IMG/VR virus record: IMGVR_UViG_3300035498_000265
Location: 1-64,000 of that record
From: a virus
Taxonomy: Duplodnaviria; Heunggongvirae; Uroviricota; Caudoviricetes; Crassvirales
Reading direction: 5' to 3' (one strand)
DNA: 64,000 nucleotides
The notes beneath the pieces are model-generated. The model was not told the origin of the DNA, searched no databases, and saw only the letters and a list, made by a program, of their open reading frames with translations. Positions 40,178 to 64,000 of this stretch are shown piece after piece. Position numbers and translations under genes: made by a program. Numbering within the stretch: the stretch's first letter is position 1; every line of letters starts with the position of its first letter.

Positions 40178-40198
40178 TCTTTAAATATAATAACAACA

Positions 40199-45345: not shown

Positions 45346-45442
45346 AGACTAAAGAATTATTCACTACTACAAACGGTAGATTAATCCTAGTTTATGCTGC
45401 ATTCCTAGGGTACTTACTTGGAGTAGTTTATGGGGCTCTAAG

Positions 45443-45904: not shown

Positions 45905-45908
45905 AATT

Positions 45909-46460
45909 ATGGTAGAAGTAAAAGTTAAAGTCTTTAATGGTCAGAAGTTACCTACTATTATTAAGAAGGGAGACTGGATTGATTTATCAATCAATGAGGA
46001 TATTCATTTAGAAGCCCCTCAAGCAGGTATACTTAGAAAAGACAGAAATGACGATGGTGAATTAGTGCAACATAGAGATGTAATTCTCAAAGTAAACTAT
46101 TTGCCATTAGGAGTAGCTATGAAATTACCTAAAGGGTATGAAGCACATATAGTATCTAGGAGTAGTACTCCTAAGAAATATGGAGTTATGTGTGCTAACT
46201 CTATAGGTATCATAGATAACTCATACTCTGGTGACAATGATGAGTGGAAATACCCAGCTATTGCCATTAGAGAGACTGACATTAAGAAAGGAACTAGAAT
46301 ATGTCAGTTTAGAATTCAACTTAGTCAGAAAGCTACTATGTGGCAAAAGATTAAGTGGTTCTTTAGCTCTGGTGTTAAGCTAGTTAAAGTTTACCAATTA
46401 GATAGCACAGATAGGTCTGGCTTAGGTAGCACTAGTGACTCAGAGTTTGTAAATCCTTAA
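45909..46460 (+). CDS. dUTPase/dCTP-deaminase family protein
   Basis: Beta-rich 183 aa with GIIDNSYSGD motif-3-like segment. Confidence 0.45.
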   Translation: MVEVKVKVFNGQKLPTIIKKGDWIDLSINEDIHLEAPQAGILRKDRNDDGELVQHRDVILKVNYLPLGVAMKLPKGYEAHIVSRSSTPKKYGVMCANSIGIIDNSYSGDNDEWKYPAIAIRETDIKKGTRICQFRIQLSQKATMWQKIKWFFSSGVKLVKVYQLDSTDRSGLGSTSDSEFVNP

Positions 46461-46474
46461 CATAAACCTGAAAA

Positions 46475-46975
46475 ATGATTTTAGAAATAGTAATAACCTT
46501 AATAGCAGTAGTAGCCATAGGACTTATGGTGAACTTTAGTGAAAATAAGATAAAAAGGAATAGCAGGAAAATTTCCTTTAAAGAGTCTATGGACTTAGCA
46601 GAGCTTCCTATTGTGACTTTTTATCAAGGAGATAAGAAGTTTAACTTCTTACTAGACACTGGAAGTAATTATTCACATATAAGTAAAGAGGCTGCTGCTG
46701 AATTGGTTGGTGAAGTACAAGCATCTGAAGGTCAAGTCTCTGGCATTGGAGGTGAGAAAGCAGATGTATTCTCAGGAGTATGTAAAACTGTATTAACTTA
46801 TAAGAATGAGCAATTTGACATTGAATTATGCATTGGTGAGCATTTAAATGACACTTTTAGTGCTATTAAAGCTGAAACTGGTGTACAAGTACATGGTTTA
46901 ATTGGTAATAAGTTCTTCCAGAGATATAAGTACATACTAGACTTTGAGGAGCTTGTAGCTTACACTAAGAAATAG
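46475..46975 (+). CDS. Membrane-anchored retropepsin-like aspartic protease; ends at TAG with TGA 8 codons downstream
   Basis: N-terminal transmembrane helix, catalytic FLLDTGSNYSHIS (D-T/S-G) motif. Confidence 0.45.
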   Translation: MILEIVITLIAVVAIGLMVNFSENKIKRNSRKISFKESMDLAELPIVTFYQGDKKFNFLLDTGSNYSHISKEAAAELVGEVQASEGQVSGIGGEKADVFSGVCKTVLTYKNEQFDIELCIGEHLNDTFSAIKAETGVQVHGLIGNKFFQRYKYILDFEELVAYTKK

Positions 46976-46982
46976 CGAGCCT

Positions 46983-47237
46983 ATGGAAAAATCCTATGAG
47001 TTAATAAGTAGAGACAATGACATTTACACCCTTGAAAGAGTTGGCGGAGTTAGCTCCAAGCAATACTCTCTTAAGGGTGTTACTCATCTAAGATTTGGCA
47101 GAAACATAATGGGTGAAATAGTCTTTGTAGACCCCAGTGGTGGCCCTTATATAGGAGTAGATAGAATCTTAGAAGGTATAGGTAAAGTGTCAGATATAAG
47201 TAATACTAATAAAAGTATACTGATAACATTCAAATAA
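46983..47237 (+). CDS. Hypothetical 84-aa protein
   Basis: Track ORF. Confidence 0.4.
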   Translation: MEKSYELISRDNDIYTLERVGGVSSKQYSLKGVTHLRFGRNIMGEIVFVDPSGGPYIGVDRILEGIGKVSDISNTNKSILITFK

Positions 47238-49450
47238 TGAGTCAGATATATCTAGTTACAGGGCAAAAGCAATTATTTGATAATGATACTTATAAAATTA
47301 TAAGTGTTGAAGATTCATTAAGGTTGCTTAAGCCATTAGTAAAGGTAGGATTAGATACTGAGACTGAGGGATTCTCCCCTTTTCTTAAGAAGCTATTGTT
47401 ACTTCAACTAGGTAATAGAGACTTTCAAGTTGTTGTTGATTGTACTACAATAGATATTCAATCCTACAAAGAATACCTAGAATCAGAGAGACTATTCATT
47501 GGATGGAATTTAAAGTTTGATGTTAAATTCCTATTCTATCATAATATTATACCAAAGAACCTCTATGATGGCTTTTTAGCAGAAAAAATGAGGTGGTTAG
47601 GCTGGCCTTCAGGTATGCACTCACTCAGTCTTAAATCAGCAGGTGAGAATTACCTAGGAGTTGAACTTGATAAGACTGTCAGAGGTCAGATTATATGGAG
47701 GAAAGAGTTGACTGATGAGATAGTAGAATATGCTGCTAATGACGTTAAATATCTAGAAGATATTATGGATAAGCAGACAGAGATACTATATGCAAGAGGT
47801 CAAAAGCTAGCTCTAGAGGTAGAGAATAAAGCTATCCTTCCTACTGCATACTTTGAGTTTTGCGGAGTTAAGCTTGACGTTGAAAGGTGGAAGGCTAAAA
47901 TGAGCAAAGATGAGGAGGCCTTGCAGAAAGCTCAGGATGAACTTGATAAGTTTGTTGTGGATTTATATGAAGCTAACAAGAGTAACTTAAGTGGATTCTG
48001 GGTTGAAGATTGGTATGATTTTAATAATGGCTCACCTAGTGGTAAATGGAAACCAGCTATTGAAACTGAGAATTCTCCTGAAGCTCCGTTCTTTGATAAA
48101 ACAGAGGGTGATTGGCAGTATATCAGTAGGGAGTTCCCATTCATTGAGGTAGCTCAACCTGACTTATTTGGATTTACTACCCCTGGCCCTAAGTGTAAAG
48201 TAAATTGGAATAGTTCTAGACAGGTAATTCCTTTGCTTGAGTTCTTCGGCTTTGACCTTTTAACTAGGGATAAAGTCAATGGTGGAATGAAGAAGTCTGT
48301 GGATGCTACAGTGATTGAAGGACAAAGAGATAAGCATCCTATTGCTGATGTTTACTTAAGGTTTAAAGCTGCACAGAAGGTAACTAGTACCTATGGACAG
48401 AATTTCCTAGACCTTATTAATCCTAAGACAGGTAGAATACATACTTCATTCAATCAAATAGGAACAGATACACATAGATATAGCTCAGGTGGTGGTGATG
48501 ATAAAGAGGTTATCCCAGGCAAGAAAGTGCCATTGGTAAATCTACAGAACCTTCCTGCTGATGCTGAGACTAGAGCTTGCTTTATATCTGATAAAGGCAA
48601 TAAGTGGATTAGCGCAGACTATAGTGGTGAAGAGTCAGTAATCTTAGCTAATATAGCCAAGGATGAAGCTATGATTGAGCTATTCTTACATGGTTGTGGA
48701 GACTTGCATAGTCTAGTAGCTAAGATGGTTTATCCTGATGAGCTTAAGGATGTCCCTGTAGAGAAGGTTAAGAAACTTAGACCTGATTTAAGGAAGAAAG
48801 CAAAGGCTCCTGAGTTTACATTTGCTTATGGTGGTGATGCTAATACCTTGATAGGTAGAGACCATATACCAGAGGATGAAGCTAGAGCTATTGAAGATAA
48901 CTACAAAAAAGGCTTCCCTGGTGTAGCAGCTTATCAAGCTAATCAGAGGAAACTAGTAATGCAATTAGGTTATATTAATACCTGTCCAGAGGTAGGTTAT
49001 AGAGCTCATATATATGACTTTGAAGACCTAGATAGGACTCAAAAGAAATTTAATCAGGAGTTCTGGGCAAAGTATAGAAACCTTAAAGCAACTAATCCAT
49101 ATGACCCTCTTGTTGAAGAAGTGAGACACTATTTCAAGAGGAAATCAGCCTCTGAAAGACAATCTATCAACTACCCGATTCAATCCAGGGGGTCAGCAGT
49201 GTTCAAGATAGCAGCAGTTAACTTGTTTAACTGGGTTGTTAAGAACAATTTGTTTGGGGTTGTAAAATTCTGTATACCTGCACACGATGAATTTAACATT
49301 GAAGCCCCTGCTGAAATAGCAGAGGAGGTAGCTAATAAACTTCATGAGTGTATGATAAATGCAGGTAAGTTTATCTGTAAAATTGTTCCTCTTGAGGCTG
49401 AAGTGTCAAGGTTAAAAGATGGAACTTTACCAACTTATTGGATACATTAA
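47237..49450 (+). CDS. Family A DNA polymerase with 3-prime-5-prime exonuclease domain
   Basis: Exo I DTETEG; 737 aa; polymerase motifs (KAKAPEFTFAYGG, NYPIQSRGSAV, PAHDEF). Confidence 0.65.
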   Translation: MSQIYLVTGQKQLFDNDTYKIISVEDSLRLLKPLVKVGLDTETEGFSPFLKKLLLLQLGNRDFQVVVDCTTIDIQSYKEYLESERLFIGWNLKFDVKFLFYHNIIPKNLYDGFLAEKMRWLGWPSGMHSLSLKSAGENYLGVELDKTVRGQIIWRKELTDEIVEYAANDVKYLEDIMDKQTEILYARGQKLALEVENKAILPTAYFEFCGVKLDVERWKAKMSKDEEALQKAQDELDKFVVDLYEANKSNLSGFWVEDWYDFNNGSPSGKWKPAIETENSPEAPFFDKTEGDWQYISREFPFIEVAQPDLFGFTTPGPKCKVNWNSSRQVIPLLEFFGFDLLTRDKVNGGMKKSVDATVIEGQRDKHPIADVYLRFKAAQKVTSTYGQNFLDLINPKTGRIHTSFNQIGTDTHRYSSGGGDDKEVIPGKKVPLVNLQNLPADAETRACFISDKGNKWISADYSGEESVILANIAKDEAMIELFLHGCGDLHSLVAKMVYPDELKDVPVEKVKKLRPDLRKKAKAPEFTFAYGGDANTLIGRDHIPEDEARAIEDNYKKGFPGVAAYQANQRKLVMQLGYINTCPEVGYRAHIYDFEDLDRTQKKFNQEFWAKYRNLKATNPYDPLVEEVRHYFKRKSASERQSINYPIQSRGSAVFKIAAVNLFNWVVKNNLFGVVKFCIPAHDEFNIEAPAEIAEEVANKLHECMINAGKFICKIVPLEAEVSRLKDGTLPTYWIH

Positions 49451-49715
49451 TATGAAACCAAAAGCAGTAAAAGTAGAACTAAATAGGGTAACTCCTAATG
49501 GTTCTAGTGGTACAGGTTACGATGAACCTTGTAACTTTAAAATATACCTAGACAATGGAGAAGTTCTTAAGAGGACAATCTATGATTGGTATAGACCCTA
49601 TGGTGAAACAATAAACTCTATAAAAGAGATGTGTATAGCTATACCAGCTTCTAATCTATTAGAGGTAATGGATATGGCATTAGATGCATGGAAAGCTGAC
49701 GTTAGTTTAGATTAA
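49419..49715 (+). CDS. Hypothetical 98-aa protein
   Basis: Track ORF. Confidence 0.4.
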   Translation: MELYQLIGYINMKPKAVKVELNRVTPNGSSGTGYDEPCNFKIYLDNGEVLKRTIYDWYRPYGETINSIKEMCIAIPASNLLEVMDMALDAWKADVSLD

Positions 49716-49725
49716 ATTATTTAAA

Positions 49726-50157
49726 ATGGAAGAGTATATTTGCACAAAAGATTTCTGCTTTGAAGATGTAATATTTGCTAAAGTTGGCGATACTATAGTA
49801 GTATTACCTGATAAGAAGACAGTAGTAAACAAGGCTACTAAATCAGTGATATCTAATCCTGAGTTAGTAAAGGACAAAAGATATTTCTCTAAAGTCCCTA
49901 AATCAGATAGGGTAAATCATCCATCACATTATACTTGGCTTAAAGAAAAATGTGGCATTGAAGTTATTGATATTACAAGGCATCTTGACTTTGATAAGGG
50001 CAATGCTGTCAAATATCTACTTAGGTCAGGCTATAAGATTGAGGAAGGCTTATCTATGGTTAACAAAGAGATTGAAGACTTGAGAAAAGCTATTTGGTAC
50101 ATCCAGGACAAAATAAATGAACTAGAAAAGTATGCTAAATACAAGTACCAAAACTAA
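49726..50157 (+). CDS. Hypothetical 143-aa protein
   Basis: Track ORF. Confidence 0.45.
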   Translation: MEEYICTKDFCFEDVIFAKVGDTIVVLPDKKTVVNKATKSVISNPELVKDKRYFSKVPKSDRVNHPSHYTWLKEKCGIEVIDITRHLDFDKGNAVKYLLRSGYKIEEGLSMVNKEIEDLRKAIWYIQDKINELEKYAKYKYQN

Positions 50158-50301
50158 AGCAAAGGCAGCCCTAAAGCTATATAATCAGATTAATAGTTAC
50201 TTACTTGAACAAGAGTTTGAGGAACTAGCTGGTAATCCTATAGCTAAGATGTCTTTGAAGCAAGCAGCTCAATGTCTTGCTAAGATAATTAGGAGAGAAC
50301 A

Positions 50302-50469
50302 TGGCTGAGTATATACTATGTAACAATTGTAAAAAGTTAATTGAATATAAGCCCGAAATTCATTATGAGGGAGGGATAACTTATAAGAAGTTAACTTGCC
50401 CTGAGTGTGGACACACAGAGATAACTAATCAGAACCATATTCACTATGGTGATGATGGTAAGAAATAAA
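50302..50469 (+). CDS. Zn-ribbon protein, 55 aa (CNNC...CPEC)
   Basis: ATG...TAA frame MAEYILCNNCKKLIEYKPEIHYEGGITYKKLTCPECGHTEITNQNHIHYGDDGKK. Confidence 0.35.
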
Positions 50470-50471
50470 TA

Positions 50472-50654
50472 ATGAGGCAATACACTCAGAGAGAGTTTAT
50501 AAAAGTAGTAAGAGCTAATGGTTTCTGTTACAAAAGAAGTAGGGGAGACCATAGCATTTATTACAATGAAAGAGGAAGACATATTAGTATTCCTAGGAAT
50601 CTCAAATGTGTAATAGCCAGAAGATTAATTAAGGAAAATAGCTTAAAAGTTTAA
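50472..50654 (+). CDS. HicA-like (YcfA family) small RNA-binding or toxin-like protein
   Basis: 60 aa with the GDHSIYYNERG...ISIP pattern characteristic of HicA. Confidence 0.4.
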   Translation: MRQYTQREFIKVVRANGFCYKRSRGDHSIYYNERGRHISIPRNLKCVIARRLIKENSLKV

Positions 50655-50657
50655 CAT

Positions 50658-50921
50658 ATGAAAATAATTAAATTCTATACTAAGACTTGTGGTCAATGTA
50701 AGGCTCTAAGTAGAGCTTTAGAGGACTTCAATCTTATTCCTATTGAGTCTGTAGACTGTGAGGAAGACCCAGAAGAACTTAGTATTAAGTTCCAAATACG
50801 GAGTCTACCTACATTAGTTATAGTAGATTCTAAAGGTGAATTCCTTAGAAAAATAACTGGTGTTATCACTAAAGATTCACTAGAGACTATAGTCAAATCT
50901 GAACTAGAACACGAAGACTAA
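50658..50921 (+). CDS. Glutaredoxin/NrdH-like thioredoxin-fold protein
   Basis: CGQC redox motif in an 87-aa ORF. Confidence 0.5.
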   Translation: MKIIKFYTKTCGQCKALSRALEDFNLIPIESVDCEEDPEELSIKFQIRSLPTLVIVDSKGEFLRKITGVITKDSLETIVKSELEHED

Positions 50922-51856
50922 TGAGACTTATAAAATCTTCAGTGGAATTATTGCCACAGAAACCTGGTATACAAGGTATACTAGAGCAAATAGAATTAGC
51001 TGCTAGGACTTGCTATAAGAGTGAGAACAACATTAAATATGATGAAGAAGGTAATTCTTTAACTGCTAAAGACTTTGTAGATAAGATAGTTAATGTCTAT
51101 AAACATCAGTCAGTGGCAGAGCATGGCACTGTATATTTACTTCTTACTACCCCTATACAAAATTTAGAGGAGTATGAAGCTATAGCAGACTTCTATAATA
51201 AAAATCCTTTTTCAGTAGTATACAAGGTAGAGTCAGGTTATGGTGTAGGTCTAGCTCCTAATTATAAATCCAATAACCAGGGGAGAACTTGTTATTATAT
51301 AACTACAAACTACAGAGTATTGTTAGAAAATAACAGGTTAGACGATTTACAATATCTTTGTAACCCTACAGAGTACCATCAGAAAAGAGTAACTATAAGA
51401 GTTAAATGCCCTATTTCAGTATCTAGAGAGTGGAATAGGCACAGGAGTCTCTCTATAAGTGAACAATCTACTAGATATTGTAATTATAGTAAGGATAAAT
51501 TTGGTAATGAGCTTACCTTTTGTATTCCTTATTGGACTCCTGACTTAAAACCTACAGAAGATGCATTTGACATTGATTATGTAGAGAGTGCAAGTCACAA
51601 AAGTAGGAAGTTCTTATGTAATTTATTTAAAGCAGAGGTGGATTACTTAGAATATACTACTGATGATGGTTTAAAACCTCAAGAAGTTAGGGAAATACTC
51701 CCCTTATGTACAGCTACAGAAGTTGTATATACAGGTTTTATAAGTGATTGGAATCACTTCTTTAGTCTTAGAGCTCCAATGAGAGGAGCTAAGAATGTTC
51801 ACCCTGAAATAGCCAAGCTTGCAGATGCAGCTTGTCAAATGATACAATGTTGTTAG
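50921..51856 (+). CDS. thyX: Flavin-dependent thymidylate synthase ThyX; ends at TAG with TGA 4 codons downstream
   Basis: ThyX signature RHRSLSISEQS. Confidence 0.65.
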   Translation: MRLIKSSVELLPQKPGIQGILEQIELAARTCYKSENNIKYDEEGNSLTAKDFVDKIVNVYKHQSVAEHGTVYLLLTTPIQNLEEYEAIADFYNKNPFSVVYKVESGYGVGLAPNYKSNNQGRTCYYITTNYRVLLENNRLDDLQYLCNPTEYHQKRVTIRVKCPISVSREWNRHRSLSISEQSTRYCNYSKDKFGNELTFCIPYWTPDLKPTEDAFDIDYVESASHKSRKFLCNLFKAEVDYLEYTTDDGLKPQEVREILPLCTATEVVYTGFISDWNHFFSLRAPMRGAKNVHPEIAKLADAACQMIQCC

Positions 51857-51869: not shown

Positions 51870-51908
51870 GAAGTAGGCAGGGCCTCGTGCTCTGCTTACT
51901 TTTTTCTT
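51870..51908 (+). terminator. Rho-independent terminator after thyX
   Basis: Stem GAAGTAGGCAGGGC / GCTCTGCTTACTT followed by a T-run. Confidence 0.55.
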
Positions 51909-52018
51909 TCTATTTACAGTAAATAATATTGTTATCTATAGCAATTTTTACTGTTAAAAGCTTGTTTAAACCAACAAAAATGCTTACCTTTGTAAAAATT
52001 TAATATAATTATGATTAT

Positions 52019-55000
52019 ATGAGCGAATGTGTAAACACAAAAAGTAAAGCCTTCCTAGATTTATAGCAAGAAACTAATGTAGCTACACCTGTTTTAAAAT
52101 AGGTGGTACATTTACTCAATAGATAGGGTGTTGAACCTACTAAAGAGGCTGTAAAGGAAACTTTAAAAGGTAAACAAGCTGAGTTTGGTAAGACTTCTAC
52201 TAAACTCTGGAAAGAGAAATATCAAACTCCTAGAATATTTAGCAACTAGGAAATTGTCAAGGAAGCTAGATTAGCTATGGAAATATTTCCAAGACAATCA
52301 GTATCAATTTATAAAAATGCTGATAATACTTGGACTATAGATGTAGCTAAACCACTAGAGAAATAGAATATTGCACCAGATGAAGATTCAACTAAGTTCT
52401 CATTTGAAAAGAATAAAGAGTCTGGTTGGGAATCATTGAGGAGTGCTGAAATACTTGCTAAGTTACCTAAAGAGATAGCTTAGAAAGTCAATGATACTAT
52501 CTCAGAATACGCTGAAGCTAAAAGCAGAGGTGTTGAGCAATCAGAAGCTAGTAACCTTTATTTTGGTGAGAATAAAGAGAGAACAGCTTCAGATTTACTA
52601 GATAGTATAATAGCAAACTCTGAAGATGCAGAGTTAGTAGAACTAGCTAAAGTAGCTAAGAGTAAGCTAAAAACTAATCCTATAGTAAAATTACAAAGGC
52701 AGAATAACGCTAGAAGAGGACTAAGAGGTTTACATCACACTGATGGTAGTATTTCTATTTATAATAGAGCTACTAAGGGTATAGATGCAACTGATGGTAC
52801 TAGAGGATTAGAAAGAACAATAGTTCATGAAATTATTCATGAAATCACCTCAGACGCCCTTAACTCAAATGAAAAACTGAGGAAAGAGGTAGCTACAATT
52901 ATGGGTTAGTTGCAAGATTACTTAACCCAGAATGGTATAAGCACATTCACTTATGCTCTAAAAAATGAAAAAGAGTTTATAGCAGAATTTATGAGTTAGC
53001 CCTTCTTTAGGGAAGCTCTTAAACATATGCCATCAAAGCTAAATAATAAACCTACAAACTTCTTTCAAAGAATTATAAATACCATAAAGTCGCTCTTTGG
53101 TAGGCAAAGAACCTTATTTAAGGACGCTAATGATGCCTTTAGACATATATTAGATGCTGAAGCAAAGGCTGACATTGTTGATAGAGTAGAAGATTTTGAA
53201 GAAGCACAAGATACTAAGGAAAGCCAAGAAAAAACTGAACAAGAAACCAATAACAAAGACAAGATGTTAGAACAAATTCATCTCATTAACAAACAATTTA
53301 ACAGAATTCTGGAAAGTAAGACCTTAACAAGTACAGATTTAGCCGAAGTATCCGACGTTATCGCAGATTTAATCTCTAGTAAGATTGATGAGCTTGAGTC
53401 TAAAAGAGACCAAGTTAAAGAGCTCTTAACTGCTAGAAACCCAGAAGACAATACTGATGTTAGCAAGTTATCTAGATTTGACCTTGTTAAAGCAGTAGGT
53501 ATCCAACACTTTATTGACTTAGTAAAGCAAGACTTTGTTATAAATAAAAGAACTGCTTTACCAGAAAATAGAGCTAAAATCACTGAAGTAGTTAAAAATT
53601 GGGACTACTTCATTAATAGAATAAAAAGTACTTTATCTGAGACTGAAGGTATTCACCTAGAGGTTAAAGTAACTGGTGAAAAAGATATTGCAAAAGATGA
53701 TGTCTTAGTAGACCAATATGAAGAAGATGGTACTAATATTCAAGACCAGGTTGAAGATGGCCAATTAAGTTGGCAAGTTGAAAACAACACTATTGACCCT
53801 GTTACAAGTATGACTCAGCTAGTAAGGTTACAATTAAGAGGACTTTATGAGCTAAGAGACAATGGTAGGAGAGATGACAATGATAACATTCTCTATGACC
53901 ATGTTAGAACTAAATGGGGTACAGATGCTAAGGTAGGTCATACTAGAGCAGCTAAATGCCTACTTAAATGGCTTAATGAAGTACCTAGTGTTGATGGTAT
54001 GGTAGAAGTACTAGAAAGTAAAGCTAAGAAAAGACCTTGGGTAACTCAATTAATACCTAAGTTATCTGATAAATCAGGCACTTACACAACTGAGCAAAGT
54101 CAATTCTTTAGTACTTTCTATAAACCTTTCATGAAGTTTACCAATGTAGGTAAGAAAGGTGACGTACTTACCTCTAGACAGTTAAATGAGCACCCATTCT
54201 TGACACTAACTATTAAGACTATTGAAGCTTCTTATAAGTTAGGTCAACATCCACTAGTAGCTAATGGCTTGGAAAGTGGAGTTAAAGAATTAATCTCTCA
54301 TTATGACAGTCTTAAAGAAGCTATATCTAAGAATGATAAAGGAGCTATTGAAGATATGCTCAGAATTATCACTAAAGATTTAGGCTTTGAAATAAATGTA
54401 GCTGAATGTCAATTGGAAGATGATGAAATCCAAAGTATATTTCATGAGCTAGGAATTATAACTACTATGGTAGGTAGAAATGCTACTAATCCAGAGTATG
54501 ACCCATTTGCTTATAACAAAGATGGTATAAGAAGTAATCTTATGAGATTCTTTGAGAAATTAACTGACCAATTTGAAGATGAAGCTATTACTTCTTTCTA
54601 TGAAGGAGGTAAAATGAGACAGAGTTATCTACTCCCATCTTACTTAACTATGTTCTCTAGTAAATTCCATCTAGAAGATAAAGCCTTTAATAGGTTCTTA
54701 TTATCTGAATTTAATAGTGAGTTCTTTAGAACTTCTCTATTTAAAGAAGGTATAGATGATGATAGCCTAGCTAGGGAAGTTAAGAAAGGCTGGACTAATG
54801 TATGGCTGTCTCAAATGATGTCAGACCCTAGAAAAAGAAGAAACTTCAGATGTAAAACTAGTCTTACTTTTAACAATGGTAAAAATCAAAAAGTTTACAT
54901 GAGAGGTATGACTGCTGAGGAATATGCACTAGCTGCAATTACTGAGTTCTTTGGTGAACAAAGTAATGATACTGAAGCTACTTTCTTAGCAAACTTTAGG

Positions 55001-58000
55001 GTTCCCATTGAGTCTAATAAGCCCTCTGCAGAGTATATTACTTTCTATGCTAGAGGTGGTTCTTTCTATAAGGATGACTTAGTTAATGACTTCCTAAGTG
55101 TATTTAATCAGGAGCTTAGTAGAATTAAAACTGTTAAACTAAGGAAGAAACTTAGAGACAGTAAAATTGCTGAGCTTCAAAAAAGATTAGATGCTGAGGA
55201 AATTACTAAGCAACAGTTTGAAGCTATCAAATATAATATCTTAGAAGAAGCTATTACTAACTTTGATACTAGAGGTGAACAATTTGTTTTCCTAGATTTC
55301 TTGAACTCAGAACTACCTAAAGAAGGTTTTGCTGGTACAGAGCTAGGTAAACTTATTGATAAATCTTCTAGGGGAGAAAAAATAGACAAAAATAAGTTAG
55401 CTGGACTAGCCGCAGAAGCCATTAGAACCTCTATTCAAGCTAGAGTTGATAGCATGATTGACAAGTTTAAAGCTAATGGTGTATTTGAGCAATGTAAGAC
55501 AATCAATAAAGTAGAAGGCACTGACAAAGTAGTTCAAAATAAACTAGAACTATTCCTATGGAATGATGCCTTTGCTTCAACTCAAATAATGCAGTTATTA
55601 ATATCAGACCCAGCCCTTTTAAAGAGCACAGATGATGTTCAAAAGAGGTTTGCACAAGTTCATGCTTCAGGGAATAGAGCTAATCTAGCTGCTACTACCT
55701 TTAAAGAGGATGGTGGCATTCCTGTTACTGATGGTGTACACAGAAGTATAACCCTCAGAGATATTGAGAAGTTTAATGCTAATGTGATTGATAACTTAAC
55801 TGCTGCACTAGACCAAAGAATAGCTAAGGCTGAAAATGATGCTGAAAGAATTTCTTGGGAGGCATTTAAAGAGAGATTAGTTGGTGAGGAGGGCCTTTAC
55901 AGAAAAAAGACTAACTTAGCTGACGCTCAAGCTTATAGCTGCCCTACTTCTTATAGGAAGAAAGCTCTTATGTTTGGCTTATGGTCAAAGGAAGCTGAAG
56001 AAGCTTATAAGAGAATTAAGAGTGGTAATTACACTTTCTCTGATGTAAGTATAGCTTTTCAACCATTCAAACCCTTCTTATTTGGCAATAGTATTGAAGA
56101 TACTGGAGTTGATGCAGAAGGAACTATCTCTAAAATGAGAGTATCTGTTCAGAATAAAAATGCTGAATGTCTACTAGTAATGGCAGATGCTATTATCGGT
56201 GACAGTGATACTGGTAAACCAAATCTTCTAAGGGCATTATTTAATGTTATGGAAGATAGTCATAAGGAGAAAGATGAAAATGGTAATCCTATAGAAGGAA
56301 CTTATAGACAAGATGGTATTGACACTGTGAACTTTGAGTCTGCTGTTAAATCAGGAGGCCAAGGTAGAATTGACACTCAAGCCTATGCTGGTGGTAAACA
56401 GCTTTTAGATGGCACTATGTTAGGTCATGAAAAAGCCTTTGAAGACCAGCTAAGGTCAATTATATATACAACTAAGACTATTAATGTAAAGAATGCAGAA
56501 GGCCAATCAGAAGAAAAAACAGTAACTGTTTATAATAAAACCTCAGTAAAGCATATTGGCTTTGAGAATTATTGTATGCAGCAAGCTGTGCCCGAGCACT
56601 TTCTAGACCATAGTCAGTTGGAAGGTTCTCAACAAAGAGCTCTTATCCCGTCTGACTTAGCTACTGTAGATGCTGCTGGTAAAGAAGTTCTCTATAAAAT
56701 AAATGAGACTACTAGCATGACAGCAGATGAGCTAAGAGCTAGATATGACCAACTTCATGCAGATAATATTCAGAAAGGTATAGATGAGATTAACACCCTC
56801 TTTAACCTAAATAACTCCACTGCTCAACAAAGGAAAGAGGCTCTTAGTAAGTTACTAGTAGACCAATTCCTAGCTGATGGTAGATATTCAGGTGATATGC
56901 TTTATATGGTAACTCTGAATGAAGAAACTGGTGATTTCCCTGTATCATTGGAAGACCCAATGATTAGAAACCAAGTAGAGCAAGCTATTAATTCTATTAT
57001 TAAAAGTAGAGTTAATAAACTTAAGATGAAAGGTGGCCCACTTGTTCAAATGTCTAACTTTGGGATGTCTAAAGAACTTAAGATTAAATTCAAAAGTAAA
57101 GATGGACAACCACTCAAAGAGAGAGCAGAATTTAATTCTGATGAAGAGTATAAAAGCTACCTTGAAGAAAATCAAGCTGGCATTGACCATTATGAAGTTA
57201 TAGCCCCTGCTTATACTGAAGGAATCTTTCAACAATTTGCAGATAATAACGGTAATATCAGTGTAGAAGCTCTAGAACTATTAGAGCCTGACCTATTGAA
57301 GATGATTGGATATAGAATTCCAACTGAAGCTAAGTATAGTATTGCACCACTTAAGATTGTAGGATTTGCTCCTAAGGAAATGGGTGATGTTATTATACTT
57401 CCTGCAGAAATTACTCTTATAACAGGTTCAGACTTTGATGTTGATAAAGAATATTGCATGAGAAAAACACTAGATATTGTACCCAAAATATTTTTATCGA
57501 AAGAAAATCAGAAATTAAGCCCAGAAGAGCAAGCTAACATTAGGTCTTCAATAGCTGCTAGAAAGCTAGCTAAAGAACCTAGTGTAAAGGAACTTAGCAA
57601 AGATATGATAGCATTAGCTGATAGATTTGTTAATGACCCTTATAATAAGAAGCTCTGGTTAAGTGAAGGCCTGACTGAGGAACAATATAAAGACATACTT
57701 AAGAGCTATGTTAATATAATGTTTGAAGTTAAACCTGCTAAAGGTGTAGACGCTAACAATAATGAGATATTTGATATGTCTTATAGTGTCTTAACTAATG
57801 AAACCAATGTAGCTAAACTACTTAAGCCAGGTGGTTTTGAAGAGCACAAACATATTGCTTATGCAGTAAGTGCTTATAGACTTCCTGAGATAAGAGAGAA
57901 AGGAATTTCCTTTGACACTCTACTTAAGATGGATACTGGCAAACTGGGCAAATTAATAGAAAAATCAGACAAGAACTTAATGTACTTTGATACTCAATTA

Positions 58001-60013
58001 GAGTATTATGGTAACAATAATTCAGCTAGTAGTCTACTAGGTATATCAGCTGTAAATAGTGTAGCTCATGCTATACTAGTCAGTGATAATATTGGGTTAG
58101 ACCTAACAGGAACATTCATTCCTACTATAGCTGGAAATGCTTTTAGCTCAAAAATGCAACTAGATAAATCATTAGCCAATGATAATGCTTCTATAGCTGA
58201 AACTTTAGGTAGCTGTGTAGCAGCATCAGCGGATGCAGCTAAAGACCCTGTATTAAACTTTATGAATCTAAATCCTCAAACTTTTAATGTTTATACAACA
58301 TTGATAAGATTAGGTATTCCTAACTCAGTAGCAACTTTATTGATGTCTTCTAAGGTACTAGGTGACGCTGTAGTTGAAGCTAACGCCAGAACACTTAAAG
58401 GTGAATGGTCAACTCCAGAGTCTATCCTTAGAGAGAAAATGTCTGATGATGAATTAAAAGACTTAGGCTATGATATACAGTCTCCTATCTTCACTGAACC
58501 AATCACCAGAGATGAGTTAATAAAAGGGCTAGTTGATGATGACTTAAATGTATCCTTAAAAATCTCAAAAGCTTTAATTGCTTTGTTTGATGTGTCTAGG
58601 AAAGTTAGATTAGCTGACCAAGTAACTAGGTATAATTCAATATCTAGTGCTGTAGGCCCATCTACTCTAGACAATTATATCTTCCAAGAGAAACTGAAGG
58701 AACTAGATAATAGCTCTTCTCTTGTAGATATGAACAATCCTGAGGGAGACCACCTGAGAACAAAGCAGTTGTTAGAAAGACATAAAATGTTATCAAAGTT
58801 TAGTGAAGCCTATAAACTAGCAGACAGTGTGTTAGTGGATGATATGCCTTTAACTAGTGCATTCTTAGATAGTATTAAAACTATCTATGCTACGCCGTTT
58901 GTAGCAGGTCTTGAGTTAAAGTTTGGACTACCAGATGTAGTTAAAGGTGATAGGGCTGTTATGGGTAAATTGAGAGACTTCTTTACTGCTTGGACTGCAG
59001 TTAAGAATGGTCTAGTTAATTATGATGAGCTTGGCTATTTAAGTAAGCAGTTCCCAAGAACACTTACTGCTAAAAAGAAAGAACACAGTGACAACTATTT
59101 AGCTCAAAACTTATATTTAAATATAGACAATAGGTCAGGATTTCCCATTGTAGCTATGAATATTTCTATGATTGAAAAAGAATCTAGAGATAAATTAGCT
59201 GCATCTTGGGCGGACTTATACACTAAGGACGAAAAATTTGCTATGGATTTATTTAAATATAGCTTCTTTAGAGGTGGATTAGGATTTAGTCCTAAGACAT
59301 TCATGAGTGTACTTCCCATCCAAATGAAAGTTAAGATGAAAGGATACTTAGACCTCTTTAAGAAAGTTGAGACATTGAGTGAGACTGAAGTTAACTTAAT
59401 GTATAAGCAGTTCATTAGTAATAACTATATGGACAATAAGGTAGCTCCAGTTATGTCAGGAATTAGCCCTGATAAAAATGGTAGAATAACAATAAGTAAA
59501 GACAATAAGAAAGCCAATTCCTTTAAGGGTGTAACTTTCTTTAAGACTATTACTAAGCCAAATACTGAATTTGGTGAACCTGTTATTAGACTATATCAAT
59601 GTGTAGGTGGTTATGAAGAAGGCCCTGTTTATAGGATGTATGAAGAAATTCCTAAACTGGGTGCTGAAGGTAACTTCTTAGAACTATCTACCGAAGAAAT
59701 AGAACAAAGTGAGTTTGATGTTAGGTTTGATTAGGATGATTCAGGTGAATCATTCTTACCACCTAGTCCTGATGATATTCCTGTTGATAGAACCCCAACT
59801 GCTATTGAGGCTAAGAGAATAATGAACGATGTTATGACATCTTAGCAACAACAAGCAGTTAGGGAAGAAATTGCCAAGAGAGAAGGTGCTATAAAGGAAG
59901 CTTATATCGCTAGATGCATGGCAAGAGCTGAATCTATTATACTAGAGAAAGGCTTTAAAATATCAAACTCAGCAAAAGACTTAGCTGAGGAAATAATAAA
60001 AAAACTTTGTTAA
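52019..60013 (+). CDS. Giant late protein, 2664 codons (10 in-frame TAG only in the first ~340 and last ~90 codons); zincin HExxH near N-terminus, DFDVD near residue 1804; candidate virion-packaged RNA polymerase or ejected cargo protein
   Basis: Frame opens after TAA 52001-52003; first ATG 52019; HEIIHE at 52826-52843; DFDVD at 57431-57445; track ORF 53027-59734 is the TAG-free core; TAA at 60011-60013. Confidence 0.45.
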
Positions 60014-60014
60014 T

Positions 60015-63000
60015 ATGGCAAAAAGTACAGGCTGTAAAAGAGCTCCTGAAATAAATGGAGAACTAAGTTAGCTATATCTGGATTTATTCGATATGCTAAA
60101 AAATAAATATAAATTAGATGCAGCTGCTGCTAGACAGGTAACTAATGTTATCTATGTCTAGTATGCATCTAATGACTAGTTAAAAGCATCACTAGATAAC
60201 CTAAATAAAGCAAGAAATAGTCAGGACTAGCATAGTGCTGATGATGTCTTTGATGCTATAGGAGGTGATGAACTAGTAAAATATGCAGCTATTGACGGTA
60301 TGAATGAACTTAACTCTCTCAGTATATCTGAGGGAGTTAAGCTCGATACTGTTCATAATGTGGAGTTTACTAATTGGGAAGACGCTTATACTAAAGCATA
60401 GGATATAAATACAGCGCATCCTACTTTAAGTGCGTATGTAATTCAATAGAATGGTAAATACATAGTTAAGATTAACAATATGACTAGCTTAAATATGGCT
60501 GATAGGGTAACTACAGACATAGAAAATCAATAGATGCAACTATTAAAGAATGCATTAGCTAGTGTTAATCTAAACATAGATGATATTACCTTTGCACAAG
60601 ATACCTTCTTTGGAAGAAGATATAATAACTTAGTAAGTTGGATTAGGAATATACCTAAGACTGACCCTAAGTATTTAATGAAGGATGATTTAAAGATGCT
60701 TATTTCTCTCTTTCAAAGAGAGCAGATAGTAGATAGAATCATAACTAAATTCGGAGGAATTGATGACCTAGTAGATGCTTACTATGGGTGGTATAGAGGT
60801 ACTTATACAGCTACACCTACTACTGAAACCCAATTAAAAGCAGCTATGGATTTAATGTAGAGCTTCAATGGTTTAGATGTTGATGCTCTATATACAAACT
60901 CTAAAGACCTAACAGACCAAATAAAGAATAATAGTGTAGATTATAATGCTAGACTATTATGGGAAAAGCTTAATGATGCATTTAAGTTAGATAGTGTGTC
61001 AATATAGACTTCTATAGATAGACTTAATACTATAAGAGAAGTAATAGCTTAGACTATTAAATCATTAGGTGTTGAAGCTAATGCTCTAAGAGGAGATAGC
61101 TAGAAAGCTGTTAGGGATGATTTATTAAATAGAATTGAAGCTCTAGATAAAGACTTAGAGCAAAGACAATATACCTCAGGACTAGCTGAGTTCTTAACTA
61201 ATGCTGCTACTAGATTATAGGATATGTTACATGAATTAGTAGTACCTATATCATAGGGCGCAGATATGAATGATATACATCAAAGAGGCTCTGCTTTAAG
61301 AAGAGCTGCTCAGTATATGCAAGTCTATAAACCTATTATAGAGAGTATTTCTAAACTAGATGGCTTAGAGAGAGATATTGATATTACTGACTAGGATGTA
61401 TAGAGACTACAAGCAGAAGCAGCTAAGTTAAATAATACTATAGTAGAGATTAACTAGGCTATTAAAAATAGTATAGATATGTGGGCTAAGTAGGCATTAT
61501 CTTTGATGTTAGTAGAAAATTCAGAGATAACTATTGATGATGTCATGGACAACTTAAAGGTAGATGCTACTTGGTTTGATAGAATGTACAATGTTACTAA
61601 AGTTAGTCAAATACCCACTGCAGTTATAGGTAACTATATCTAGGAAACTAGAAGATAGAGAACTATGAGATTAGCTCATATAGCTGATAGAATAGGTGCT
61701 ATATTGTAGACTAAAGACCCTGTTACAGGTAAGAGCTCTAATATGAAGAATAGGAATACATCATTTATGTATGAGCTAGTAGACTCTGAGTTTGGTGGTG
61801 GTAAAAAGGAGTACAAAATTATAAGTGAGTACGATTTTAATAAGTACTATGAGCTAAAGAGAAAATAGGCTGGAAGGTTAAAAAAGAGAGGTGTAACAGG
61901 GGCTGCATTCAATCTAGCTATGGAAGCTTGGGTTAATAATAACACAGATACTATTGTAGTAGACTAGGTTACTAATAGAACAGAAAGAGTTCCTAAAGTA
62001 AAGAAAGCACAGAACCCTCTTGATAAACTGTCAGAGACTGAAAGGGCTATATATGATTAGTTCTTAGACTTAAAAGGAGAGATAGATAGTATGCTTCCAG
62101 AGTTCGCTAGAAGCAGGTATAACCCTCCCCAATTAAGAAAGAATGCTCTAGATTAGCTAGGCTAGGGTAAAGTTGGTAAGGCTGTTGCTGAGAAATATAA
62201 ATCTAACTTTAGTGTTAGAGAGGATGAAGAAGGGTTTGGTTAGATTAAGGAAACTGATGATGGGGAAGTAATATCAACTTACACAGATATGACTGGTAGT
62301 ACTGATATAGTCCCAGTTAATTATGTACAGAAGCTTAAGAATCAAGATGAGCTATTATTAAACTTCTCAGAGGGATTACTTCACTTAGCATCCTCAGCTA
62401 TTAACTATGATATTATTAAGGGTATAACTGATACAGTAGAAGTTCTTAGTGACTATGTAGTAGATAAAGTACATCCTATGTAGAATGGGCTAGAGCTAGC
62501 TCAAACATTCACTTATGGAACTAAACTATTCTATGAAGTAGGTAAAAGAGGTAAACATGATATTTCTAATGTAGAAAGAATACTACAAGATTAGAAAAAG
62601 AGATTACTCTATAATGATACTACTGCAGGTAGGTCAGTCAAAGTAACAAAGGGCTTAAACTTTATTAGAAAAGTAACTTCAGTATAGGCTCTTAGTTTTA
62701 ACCTATTTGGTGCTATGAATAATGCATTAGAGGGCTATAGAAAGAACTTAGAGGAAGCTATAACATATGGTACTGATACCTTTGACCTTGTTGACCTTGA
62801 GTGGGCTCATGCAGTTATCTTTGGTCTCCACCCACTTGAAGGGGTAGGTCATATAAAGGATTTCTTAACAGGTAAAAGAACTCATAAAGGCAGCTTAATA
62901 GTTAATAGGTTTGACCCTAAGAAAGAGAAATACCATGAGATAGCTAATAGAAAATATAGGACTAATTTCTTTAGGACTTTAGTATCTAAGGATTTAACTA

Positions 63001-64000
63001 TGATTATGTATGGCTTTGGTGAAACTCTTAATAACTTACCTATTATATATGCTATGTTGCACCATGTTAAGGTAACTATAGATGGTAAGAAAGGCACACT
63101 ATATGATGCTCTTGAAGTAAGGTAGAGAGCAGATGGAACTAGTGAATTAGCACTTAAGCCAAAAGTAATTAATATCAAAACTGGAAAGCATGTCACAGAT
63201 GCCGACTTAGATGAGTTAGCTAAGAAGATGAATGAAGTCTCTGAGACTAACCACGGTGGTATGTCTGATGAAGCTAAAGGTGAAATAGCTTCAACTCTAC
63301 TAGGTATGATGACTCTACAACTTAGGAGATGGATGATTGGTGTCTATTCTAAGTACTTTAGAGGTGAATACTTTGATGCATCTACTGGTAAAAAAAGAGA
63401 GGGTGCTTGGAAGGGTGCTTATGATTTTCTAAGTATGATAGCAAAAGATATGAAAGGTATGCCTTGGAGCTTAGACTGGGGACATGATATGAGGACTTTC
63501 AGTTAGGAATGTATAAAGAATTGGCATAACTTTAAGCCTCATCAAAGGAAAGCAGCTGTAAGCTTTGCAACTACAACGGTTTTAATGACAGTATTAAGCT
63601 GGCTAGTAGATGGCATTGTTAGAAGTTACTACCCCTCAGATAAGGATGAAATATGGTTCAAAGTAGTATTTTATCTATTAGCAAGACAGAGAATGGATGT
63701 TCAGTCTACTGTACCTGACTTAAAGCATCTAGAGAGAGTTGGATAGATTGGTACAAGTATGATTGAGATTATGGATAAACCGTTTGCATCTTACTCTACT
63801 ATTGAGATGGCTACTTATTGGGTTACAGCTCTCCCAGAACAAGGTGAAGAAGTTAAATCTGGCCCTCATAAAGGAGAGGATAAATACCTGAGGGGATTGA
63901 GTAAGCATTATGTGAAACCACTAGAGCTATATTATAGACTAGAAGGATTGAAAGACACAGATGAGCTCATAGAAAGCTTAGGTGGACTAAAAGGTAAGTT
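60015..64000 (+). CDS. Second giant late protein (at least 1328 codons, continues past window end), about 35 in-frame TAG
   Basis: ATG 60015 lies 1 nt after the TAA of the previous gene; track fragments 60534, 62289, 62715 and 63228 are all in this frame, separated only by TAG. Confidence 0.45.

What the first reader, a model, noticed from the sequence alone, without database searches (positions are those of the whole stretch)
52019..60013. Giant 2664-codon ORF with a 6.7-kb TAG-free core bounded exactly by in-frame TAGs
The frame is open from 52019 to the TAA at 60011. All 10 in-frame TAG codons lie in the first ~340 codons (8 TAG) and the last ~90 codons (2 TAG). The 2235-codon core (53027-59731) has none. 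It begins at an ATG with a plausible RBS (GGGAAG, 11 nt upstream) just after a TAG, and ends at a TAG. Under the standard code a 2235-aa core protein would be made; with suppression, N- and C-terminal extensions are appended. This could be code-dependent isoform switching or mosaic origin from a non-recoded donor.
Basis: seen in the sequence. Interest (0 to 1): 0.7.

Follow-up and report, generated by a model that had tools for sequence, protein, structure and literature searches.

The report
Amber-free core inside recoded polymerase gene
In a gut crAss-like phage that reads the stop codon TAG as glutamine in its late genes, the giant gene for the RNA polymerase carried in the virus particle uses TAG only at its two ends and never in its 2,200-codon catalytic core; related phages keep the same pattern by selection, which suggests the core can be made before the phage switches the genetic code.

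Summary
ORF 52019-60013 has 2664 codons. Eight in-frame TAGs lie in codons 16-327, two lie in the last 93 codons, and 2244 codons in between have none.

The gene is the virion-packaged RNA polymerase of a TAG-to-Gln recoded crassvirus (phi14:2 gp66 / crAss001 gp50 family). Both ends are ancestral parts of the protein, not separate genes.

The pattern is not peculiar to this genome:
- All nine fetched relatives (63-71% core identity to the window) have TAGs in the N-terminal region and C-terminal tail, and a TAG-free core of 2130-2464 codons.
- Two much more distant recoded lineages show the same thing.
- Across the clade, 0 of 796 core glutamine codons are TAG, against 139 of 379 in the flanks.
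- Core glutamine codons still switch freely between CAA and CAG.
- A lineage-specific insertion inside the core is also TAG-free.

This is purifying selection, not a recent mosaic.

Best reading, inferred rather than shown: the catalytic core stays translatable under the standard code, probably from an internal start (ATG 53264 is a better candidate than 53027) to TAG 59732. The full-length form would need amber suppression. At least one other recoded lineage has a TAG-rich core, so the rule is lineage-specific.

The parts
51870..51902 (+). Terminator-like hairpin plus T-run. It closes the replication-module operon just upstream of the polymerase gene.
   Evidence: the only terminator-like site in 51500-60400. 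It follows the Thy1 gene (TAG stop at 51854, backup TGA at 51869).
51985..51992 (+). TAccTTTG, a match to the Bacteroidota -7 promoter element TAnnTTTG, 27 nt upstream of ATG 52019.
   Evidence: The motif occurs at chance frequency window-wide, so this is only a plausible promoter. No such motif lies between 52019 and 53264.
52019..60013 (+). Full-length ORF of the virion RNA polymerase (2664 codons plus TAA). It is readable only if TAG is decoded as Gln.
52019..53263 (+). N-terminal region with 8 in-frame TAGs (8 of the 17 Gln codons in codons 1-336). It holds a family-wide conserved N-terminal domain (MSxCVNT..., about 120 aa) and an HEIIHE (HExxH) motif at 52826-52843.
   Evidence: Residues 4-116 match the start of the cr116_1 giant ORF. 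Distant non-recoded homologues start the same way.
53027..53029 (+). First ATG after the last N-terminal TAG.
   Evidence: Local fold -6.3 kcal/mol and 35% A upstream, typical of internal ATGs.
53264..53266 (+). Candidate internal start codon at the beginning of the conserved core (MLEQI).
   Evidence: It has the A-richest upstream 20 nt (65%) of the 62 in-frame ATGs. It is the 3rd least structured, at -2.8 kcal/mol, equal to the median of real gene starts. An ATG lies at 0, -6 or -14 codons from this point in all 10 clade genomes.
53000..59731 (+). TAG-free catalytic core (2244 codons; 84 CAA/CAG and 0 TAG within 53027-59731). The DFDVD metal-binding motif is at 57431-57445.
59732..59734 (+). 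First C-terminal TAG, directly after the last core motif FDVRFD. This would be the stop codon of any standard-code product.
   Evidence: TAG occupies this same alignment column in 8 of 10 clade genomes. The first tail TAG lies within -3 to +6 codons of it in 10 of 10.
59732..60010 (+). 93-codon C-terminal tail with 2 TAGs (59732, 59843), ending in a family-wide conserved C-terminal Cys (..KKLC).
   Evidence: Non-recoded homologues end ..NLC..TIC..SIC or ..KYC.
60015..64000 (+). Downstream gene in the position of crAss001 gp49 (a virion cargo protein). It runs off the window and uses TAG evenly (32 TAG in 1328 codons).
13242..13330 (-). Phage-encoded amber suppressor tRNA (anticodon CTA). It lies in the tRNA array at the 5' end of the minus-strand late (TerL, portal) block.
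21407..51856 (+). TAG-free ('dual-coded') replication and nucleotide-metabolism block (about 30 ORFs; 0 TAG against 242 CAA/CAG).

Best explanation
The ORF encodes the virion-packaged two-barrel RNA polymerase of a Steigviridae-like crassvirus. This phage decodes TAG as glutamine in its late genes with its own tRNA(CTA).

Within this one gene the code use is partitioned. The catalytic core (about 53000-59731) is kept free of TAG by purifying selection, like the early replication genes. The conserved N-terminal region and the C-terminal tail use TAG for about half of their glutamines, like late genes.

The most likely reason is that the core has to be translatable while TAG still means stop. 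Ribosomes would start at an internal site (best candidate ATG 53264, alternative ATG 53027) and terminate at TAG 59732. That would yield a free polymerase of about 2156-2235 aa without the end pieces. Once the suppressor tRNA is active, ribosomes starting at ATG 52019 would read through all ten TAGs and make the 2664-aa form carrying both termini, presumably the form that is packaged and ejected.

Shown: the partition, its recurrence, selection against TAG in the core, TAG = Gln, and the ancestry of both termini. Inferred: internal initiation, two products, and their different roles.
For: 1. Identity.
- The core hits crAss 'putative RNA polymerase' genes.
- The profile matches PDB 6VR4, phi14:2 gp66, at E = 3e-29.
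- The DFDVD motif is at 57431-57445.
- Gene order matches crAss001 around gp54 to gp49.

2. Genome context.
- TerL and portal carry 17 and 15 TAGs.
- The replication block has none.
- A tRNA(CTA) is present.
- Gln is the residue most enriched (3.7x) opposite TAG columns.

3. Recurrence.
- All 9 fetched relatives (63-71% core identity to the window, 65-98% among themselves) have 3-17 N-terminal TAGs, 3-7 tail TAGs and a TAG-free core of 2130-2464 codons.
- Five of them were found through gene calls whose products do not match a table-11 translation of the locus, so presumably made with TAG read as sense; their detection did not depend on the core being open.
- Independent lineages L013 (36% identity) and L079/L078 (30%) show the same pattern.

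4. Selection rather than lack of time.
- Clade total: 0 of 796 core Gln codons are TAG against 139 of 379 in the flanks, P = 6e-78.
- 52 of 58 conserved core Gln columns carry both CAA and CAG.
- The 84 TAG columns in the flanks are mostly private to one or two genomes.
- A 211-aa insertion inside the core of L002, absent from the 98%-identical L003, has 13 Gln codons and no TAG.

5. Specificity.
- The neighbouring giant genes (in the positions of crAss001 gp49 and gp47) have TAG-free runs of at most 282 codons.

6. Internal start.
- An in-frame ATG lies at 0, -6 or -14 codons from the core start in 10 of 10 genomes and at about -7 in L013.
- It ranks 1st-4th of 54-75 in-frame ATGs for least local structure.

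7. TAG as a real stop early on.
- Three early genes end in TAG, with backup TAA/TGA 5-12 codons later.

8. Biology of relatives.
- In phi14:2 the polymerase gene is a middle gene that is still transcribed late, and the enzyme transcribes the early genes.
- In N4, the core-only mini-vRNAP is catalytically active and the isolated C-terminal domain inhibits it.
Against: - There is no direct evidence that the internal ATG is used. No ribosome, peptide or transcript data were available.
- The A-rich, unstructured context of ATG 53264 could simply follow from the Glu/Lys/Gln-rich linker it lies in. Non-recoded relatives have a similar linker.
- The Met at this position is one of several hydrophobic residues (M/L/F) also seen in non-recoded relatives.
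- No promoter-like motif was found between 52019 and 53264.
- General codon usage of the core is intermediate between early and late genes, not clearly early-like.
- At least one other partly recoded lineage (L047/L112; probably also the short contigs L109, L115, L117) has many TAGs in the core. A standard-code core is therefore not a general requirement of recoded crassviruses.
Confidence: 0.5

Rival explanations
1. There is no second product. The whole gene is translated only under amber suppression, but suppression is leaky. A TAG inside the core would yield long truncated polymerases that waste resources or poison function or packaging, so it is selected against. Early TAGs give short harmless peptides, and tail TAGs give near-complete, tolerable proteins.
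For: - It explains a TAG-free core with TAGs at both ends without invoking internal initiation.
- Sense TAGs in late genes are seldom followed by T or C (16 of 75 against 41% after CAA/CAG). This may reflect avoidance of particular release-factor contexts, i.e. competition with termination.
- About six polymerase copies are packed per crAss001 virion, so defective copies could matter.
Against: - The two neighbouring giant genes, whose crAss001 counterparts gp49 and gp47 are virion cargo proteins, carry 17-81 evenly spread TAGs. So do portal and TerL, whose truncations should also be harmful.
- N-terminal TAGs reach to 11-41 codons before the core in some genomes, so complete N-terminal regions of 400-700 aa would be released.
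- Lineage L047 tolerates 32 TAGs in the core.
- A merely quantitative cost would give a gradient, not 0 of 796.
Confidence: 0.2
2. Transition-phase dosage. The polymerase is a middle gene translated while suppressor tRNA is still scarce, so only a few TAGs are tolerated in total, and they happen to sit at the ends.
For: In phi14:2 the polymerase gene is in the middle class, earlier than the capsid genes. The gene has fewer TAGs per codon than its neighbours.
Against: - A limit on number does not predict position. TAG density in the flanks equals that of late genes (8 of 17 Gln codons against 87 of 191), while the core has exactly none in 13 genomes.
- The co-transcribed downstream gene carries 32 TAGs.
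Confidence: 0.07
3. Mosaic origin. The core was recently imported, or is repeatedly overwritten by recombination, from non-recoded phages. The ends come from recoded genomes.
For: - The N-terminal region is clearly modular. Relatives carry different N-domain types and inserted ART-PolyVal or other domains.
- Crassviruses exchange modules, e.g. DNA polymerase swapping (Yutin 2021).
Against: - All 10 genomes of the clade share the partition although their cores differ by up to 37% in protein sequence, with saturated CAA/CAG turnover.
- The extreme N-terminal domain and the tail are ancestral to the family yet carry TAGs at partly shared columns.
- No relative between 38% and 60% identity turned up: none between 37% and 60% among 5.8 billion proteins, and none above 38% in the two contig scans. 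All nine relatives at 60% identity or more whose contigs were fetched are recoded.
- The lineage-specific insertion inside the core is TAG-free too.
Confidence: 0.07
4. Artefact or mis-annotation. The flanks are separate genes or non-coding, or the TAGs are sequencing errors.
For: A standard-code gene caller (JGI) called only the 2235-aa core (P0001).
Against: - No TAA or TGA separates the three parts.
- Non-recoded homologues (cr116_1, L011, P0026-28) encode N-terminus, core and tail in one ORF, with the same N-terminal MSCVNT motif and C-terminal Cys.
- Ten independent assemblies agree.
- TAG columns align with Gln.
Confidence: 0.01

Closest known systems
Block-wise stop-codon recoding in crAss-like phages: 'low-amber/high-amber' domains, late-gene code 15 and 'dual-coded' early blocks (Ivanova 2014; Yutin 2021 PMC7886860; Borges 2021 bioRxiv 10.1101/2021.08.26.457843; Pfennig 2022 bioRxiv 10.1101/2022.06.29.495998; Peters 2022 PMC9523058)
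   Same: The genome plan is the same. Replication genes are TAG-free. TerL, portal and tail genes use TAG as Gln. A Sup-tRNA(CTA) sits at the 5' end of the late strand. A few early genes end in TAG and would be slightly extended after the switch.
   Different: Those papers describe blocks of whole genes, and 'isoforms' that differ only by short extensions. Here the boundary runs twice through a single 8-kb gene. A dual-coded 2,200-codon core is flanked by code-15-only termini, and the arrangement is conserved by selection in three deep lineages. I found no description of this in the papers read. Yutin's Fig. 3 draws in-frame stops in the transcription block, but its text does not comment on them.
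Crassvirus virion RNA polymerase (phi14:2 gp66, PDB 6VR4; crAss001 gp50)
   Same: The catalytic core is homologous, with the DxDxD motif. Gene order is the same, with genes in the positions of gp49 and gp47 nearby. By homology it is packaged and transcribes early genes.
   Different: The characterised members are not recoded. No internal start or core-only form has been reported for them.
Coliphage N4 virion RNA polymerase (N-terminal domain, mini-vRNAP core, C-terminal domain)
   Same: A giant packaged polymerase whose catalytic core works on its own. Its terminal domains serve ejection and regulation, and the C-terminal domain inhibits activity.
   Different: It is an unrelated single-subunit polymerase fold. 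Only one product is made. N4 makes a second, separately encoded polymerase for middle genes (my own knowledge).
Thermus phage P23-45: virion RNA polymerase fused to the tape measure protein, plus a separate non-virion polymerase
   Same: A phage that uses both a packaged and a free two-barrel RNA polymerase at different times (abstract).
   Different: There are two genes. Here one gene would yield both forms, gated by the genetic code.
In-frame nested products from one gene (T7 gene 4A/4B internal start; Qbeta A1 and MuLV Gag-Pol stop-codon readthrough) - from my own knowledge
   Same: Two proteins share a core and differ at an end, produced by an internal start codon or by reading through a stop.
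   Different: In those cases the ratio is fixed by local signals in a constant translation environment. Here ten TAGs and a trans-acting suppressor tRNA would switch the product in time.

Membership tests
Crassvirales virion RNA polymerase (gp66/gp50 family) | Two-barrel polymerase core with the catalytic DxDxD motif | tested here: met
   DFDVD at 57431-57445. D1390, D1392 and D1394 are invariant in alignment A1.
Crassvirales virion RNA polymerase (gp66/gp50 family) | Sequence homology to the solved and annotated members | tested here: met
   Profile A1 against PDB finds 6VR4 (DNA-dependent RNA polymerase) at E = 3e-29. tblastn hits 'putative RNA polymerase' of crAss001, cr128_1, cr85_1 and others.
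Crassvirales virion RNA polymerase (gp66/gp50 family) | Conserved gene neighbourhood (replication module with Thy1 upstream; large genes in the positions of gp49 and gp47 after it) | tested here: met
   Thy1 at 50903-51856. A gene of more than 1328 codons lies downstream. A minus-strand giant ORF follows in the relatives. crAss001 map.
Crassvirales virion RNA polymerase (gp66/gp50 family) | Packaged in the virion and transcribes early genes | not testable with these tools
   Known for phi14:2 and crAss001 only.
Amber-recoded (code 15) phage with dual-coded early block | In-frame TAG in conserved late genes, and a TAG-free early block | tested here: met
   TerL has 17, portal 15 and tail-like ORFs 5-12 TAGs. 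The replication ORFs have 0 TAG against 242 CAA/CAG.
Amber-recoded (code 15) phage with dual-coded early block | TAG stands for glutamine | tested here: met
   Gln is enriched 3.7x opposite TAG columns, followed by K, E and R. Tyr, Ser and Leu are depleted. Proteomic proof exists for other crAss-like phages only.
Amber-recoded (code 15) phage with dual-coded early block | Phage suppressor tRNA(CTA) at the 5' end of the recoded strand | tested here: met
   13242-13330 (-), upstream of the TerL operon. Its long variable arm is unusual for tRNA-Gln.
Genes with an in-frame internal translation start (nested isoforms) | A functional internal initiation site giving an N-terminally shorter product | tested here: inconclusive
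   An ATG is kept at or near the core start in all type-A genomes, and its context looks like that of real starts. The linker's amino-acid composition is a confounder, and there are no expression data.
Programmed stop-codon readthrough (single leaky stop with a local signal) | One stop codon, a fixed low readthrough rate, and a stimulatory 3' context or RNA structure | tested here: not met
   There are ten TAGs rather than one, genome-wide sense use of TAG, and a dedicated suppressor tRNA. The base after the boundary TAG is not conserved (G, T or A). RNA structure 3' of 59732 was not examined.
Polyvalent proteins (multi-domain effector proteins delivered with phage DNA; Iyer et al. 2017, from memory) | Variable effector domains (ART-PolyVal, zincin-like peptidase and others) fused to a conserved delivered protein | tested here: inconclusive
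   Relatives carry ART-PolyVal (PF18760, E = 5e-20 in P0010) or cpYpsA (P0025) in the N-terminal region. The window's own N-terminal region has an HExxH motif only, with no Pfam, PHROG or PDB match.

The most novel reading that the evidence does not exclude
One gene gives two RNA polymerases, selected by the state of the genetic code in the infected cell. A free catalytic core is made from an internal start while TAG is still a stop. A full-length form with effector-bearing N-terminus and C-terminal tail is made only after the phage's amber suppressor turns TAG into glutamine, and is packaged for the next infection. The code switch would then act as a protein-isoform switch, not only as an on/off gate for late genes.
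Probability: 0.4. Interest if true: 0.8.

Novelty: new variant of a known kind. Interest (0 to 1): 0.65.

Why it matters
Amber recoding in gut phages is thought to time late-gene expression, but that idea rests on whole-gene correlations. Here a single gene carries both coding regimes with sharp, conserved boundaries. Selection visibly removes every TAG from 2,200 codons while allowing about half of the glutamines next to them to be TAG.

This gives a built-in, testable readout of the code switch. Does the core appear before the termini? Which start is used? What does a free polymerase do?

It also matters for annotation. Standard-code callers report a 2235-aa 'complete' protein and code-15 callers a 2664-aa one, and both may be real. 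It further suggests which parts of the crassvirus polymerase are catalytic and which are virion-specific.

Tried and rejected
- PHROGs and Pfam gave nothing for the three parts of the ORF or for the downstream gene.
- A single-sequence scan of IMG/VR found no close relative.
- General codon usage (late/early log-odds, GC3) does not separate the core from the flanks.
- The Bacteroidota -7 motif TAnnTTTG occurs at chance frequency and is absent upstream of the internal ATG. The sigma-70 scan was at the level of shuffles.
- The base after TAG does not mark the boundary TAG as special.
- The first tail TAG occupies the same alignment column in 8 of 10 genomes. I did not count this as independent evidence, because most tail glutamines are TAG anyway.
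- The Met of MLEQI is not specific to recoded phages.
That ATG has an ordinary internal context, and the hosts of crassviruses are Bacteroidota, which from my own knowledge do not rely on such sites.


Full report
**1.

The frame containing 52019-60013 is open from 52004 to the TAA at 60011. It has ten in-frame TAGs and no TGA or other TAA. Eight TAGs lie in codons 16-327: 52064, 52100, 52124, 52247, 52364, 52481, 52907 and 52997. Two lie in the last 93 codons: 59732 and 59843. The stretch 53000-59731 (2244 codons) has none.

**2. Genome context**

The window (34.7% G+C) is a crassvirus.

- The minus strand of 1-10 kb encodes the large terminase subunit, the portal and tail-like proteins. These are readable only if TAG is sense, with 5-17 TAGs each.
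- A tRNA array at 12.8-15.7 kb on the same strand includes a tRNA with anticodon CTA at 13242-13330.
- The plus strand of 21.4-51.9 kb holds about 30 ORFs with no in-frame TAG at all. They include an AAA ATPase, SNF2- and DnaB-like helicases, NrdD, family A DNA polymerase and Thy1.
- Then comes a strong terminator-like hairpin at 51870-51902, followed by the giant ORF.
- One base after its TAA, a second giant ORF begins, with 32 TAGs in 1328 codons.
- Late genes use TAG for 87 of 191 glutamine codons. Early genes use it for 0 of 242.

**3. What the gene is**

The core matches 'putative RNA polymerase' genes of crAss001 and many other crassviruses. The closest deposited genome is cr116_1 (Steigviridae, 35.6% identity over 96% of the core). 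A profile of the core finds the solved phi14:2 gp66 polymerase (6VR4) at E = 3e-29. The catalytic DFDVD motif is at 57431-57445. Gene order matches crAss001 (Thy1 gp54, then the polymerase gp50, then gp49, with gp47 on the other strand), whose three large proteins are all virion cargo.

The two ends are not foreign.

- Residues 4-116 match the very start of the cr116_1 giant ORF.
- Non-recoded homologues at 33-36% identity start with the same MSCVNT motif and end with the same C-terminal cysteine, in one uninterrupted ORF.
- Between these conserved ends the N-terminal region is modular. Relatives carry two different peptidase-like domain types, plus inserted ART-PolyVal or cpYpsA domains.
- The window's version has an HEIIHE motif (52826-52843) but no database match.

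**4. The partition is a clade property**

A protein search returned the exact 2235-aa core as a JGI standard-code call, plus relatives at 60-70% identity. I fetched nine of their contigs.

In every one, the TAA/TGA-delimited polymerase ORF (2654-3097 codons) has 3-17 TAGs in the N-terminal 230-700 codons and 3-7 TAGs in a tail of 84-96 codons. Between them lies a TAG-free run of 2130-2464 codons. Five of the nine products do not match a table-11 translation of their locus, so those gene calls presumably read TAG as sense. Their detection therefore did not depend on an open core.

- The flanks hold 84 distinct TAG alignment columns, most private to one or two genomes. This means ongoing gain and loss.
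- The roughly 2,500 core columns hold none.
- Summed over the ten genomes, TAG accounts for 0 of 796 core glutamine codons and 139 of 379 flank glutamine codons (P = 6e-78).
- 52 of 58 conserved core glutamine columns contain both CAA and CAG, so synonymous change is saturated.
- CAG makes up 53% of core glutamine codons. In the flanks it is 15% of all glutamine codons (23% of CAA+CAG), and CAG plus TAG together make 51%. TAG has therefore replaced CAG only outside the core.
- L002 carries a 211-aa insertion inside the core that is missing from the 98%-identical L003. It has 13 glutamine codons and no TAG. Position in the ORF decides, not the age or conservation of the segment.
- The neighbouring giant genes (in the positions of gp49 and gp47) never have a TAG-free run above 282 codons.

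**5. Wider survey**

Scans of IMG/VR and of metagenome contigs with a core profile found about 100 loci at 27-38% identity, most of them not recoded. The recoded ones fall into two types.

- Type A repeats the pattern in two further deep lineages. L013 (36% identity, 41% G+C) has TAGs at codons 17, 58 and 683, and at 2810, with none in the 2044-codon core. L079/L078 (30% identity) has nine N-terminal TAGs, none in about 2,300 core codons and two in the tail.
- Type B has TAGs throughout. L047/L112 has 80 TAGs in 4768 codons, 32 of them in the core. Its genome still has a TAG-free block of small genes. The short contigs L109, L115 and L117 also have TAGs in the core.

The TAG-free core is therefore recurrent but lineage-specific.

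**6. Meaning of TAG**

Opposite TAG columns, glutamine is the most enriched residue (3.7x), followed by Lys, Glu and Arg. Tyr, Ser and Leu are depleted. This agrees with proteomic proof of TAG = Gln in other crAss-like phages. It also stands despite the suppressor tRNA having a long variable arm.

**7. Explanation**

Purifying selection against TAG in a segment is the signature used to recognise genes that must be translated while TAG is a stop. The upstream 327 codons of the same ORF contain eight TAGs, so the core can be translated in that state only from an internal start.

- The conserved core begins at MLEQI (ATG 53264).
- In L003, L007 and L010 this is the only ATG between the last N-terminal TAG and the core. 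In L008 and L009, where the residue is not Met, an ATG lies 6 and 14 codons upstream. In L013 one lies about 7 codons upstream.
- In all ten clade genomes this ATG ranks 1st-4th of 54-75 in-frame ATGs for lack of local RNA structure. In the window it scores -2.8 kcal/mol. That equals the median of real gene starts, against -6.2 for internal ATGs. It also has the A-richest upstream 20 nt.
- A standard-code product would end at TAG 59732. The first tail TAG lies within -3 to +6 codons of this point in all ten genomes.
- TAG does act as a stop early on. Three replication-block genes end in TAG, with a backup TAA/TGA 5-12 codons later.

A rationale is available from relatives.

- In phi14:2 the polymerase gene is a middle gene that stays on late, and the enzyme transcribes the early (replication) genes.
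- In N4, the catalytic core alone is active and the isolated C-terminal domain inhibits it.
- P23-45 uses separate virion and non-virion polymerases.

All of this is inference. The linker's composition could by itself produce the start-like context. The Met also occurs in some non-recoded relatives. No internal promoter was seen. Type B phages manage without a TAG-free core.

**8. Rivals**

- *Leaky suppression with selection against long truncated polymerases.* This explains the shape but not why the genes in the positions of gp49 and gp47, the portal and TerL tolerate evenly spread TAGs. It also does not explain why L047 tolerates 32 in the core.
- *A limit on the total number of TAGs.* This does not predict their position.
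- *Recent mosaic origin.* This is contradicted by the clade-wide pattern, the synonymous turnover, the TAG-bearing ancestral termini, the TAG-free insertion, and the absence of any relative between 38% and 60% identity.
- *Artefact or separate genes.* This is excluded.

**9. Prior knowledge**

Block-wise amber recoding, dual-coded early blocks and a 'soft switch' are published for this kind of phage, probably including this ~105-kb lineage. None of the texts I could read describes a single gene split into a dual-coded core and code-15-only termini, or its conservation. I therefore rate it a new variant of a known kind.

Noticed in passing
window 21057-21394 (+): A phage-encoded tmRNA (Rfam RF00023, 73.7 bits, E = 1e-26, full-length model). 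Its tag is ADTYTTAYDMAA and ends in TAA. It lies at the 5' end of the TAG-free replication block. In an amber-suppressing infection, ribosomes that run through TAG stops could need rescue, so this may be linked to the code switch.
   Followed up: partly
window 13242-13330 (-): The amber suppressor tRNA(CTA) is 89 nt long with a long variable arm, like class II tRNAs (Leu, Ser, Tyr). Yet TAG aligns with glutamine in homologues. Its origin and charging are unexplained.
   Followed up: partly
window 38100, 46973, 51854 (+): Three replication-block genes (36744-38102, 46472-46975 and Thy1 at 50903-51856) end in TAG, with an in-frame TAA/TGA 5-12 codons later. They would get short extensions once TAG is suppressed.
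   Followed up: partly
window 12877-15699 (-) and 19743-24654 (+): Large tRNA complement: 21 tRNA genes, 17 of them in one minus-strand array between the late and early modules.
   Followed up: no
L002 16019-16651 (codons 2013-2223 of the RNAP ORF); also P0012, P0014, P0017, P0018: Some relatives carry lineage-specific domains of 200-350 aa inserted into the polymerase core at the same site (after ..PTIAGF.F, before MRLDPS). P0012, one of them, has a precomputed NADAR (PF08719) hit. In the one case checked (L002) the insert is TAG-free.
   Followed up: partly
L079 13618-19224 (-) versus L002, L005-L010: The minus-strand giant ORF (in the position of crAss001 gp47) is TAG-free in lineage L079 (0 TAG, 85 CAA/CAG). 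In the window's clade it carries 48-81 TAGs. Which cargo genes are kept code-neutral therefore differs between lineages.
   Followed up: no
L047 (= L112) 2312-16618: A recoded crassvirus lineage has a 4768-codon polymerase ORF with 80 evenly spread TAGs, 32 of them in the core. The gene follows another TAG-rich gene rather than the replication module.
   Followed up: partly
L001 (cr116_1, record positions 39997-50862); L003, L005, L010: In cr116_1 the polymerase is split into a 2507-aa ORF and an 833-aa ORF by an inserted 215-aa gene. In several relatives the family A DNA polymerase is split by a LAGLIDADG gene. These look like intron or homing-endonuclease insertions.
   Followed up: no
window 52025-52027 and 60008-60010; homologues P0002-P0028: A Cys near the N-terminus (MSxCVNT) and a Cys as the very last residue are conserved across the whole family, recoded or not. 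Their function is unknown, and both lie in the TAG-bearing termini.
   Followed up: no
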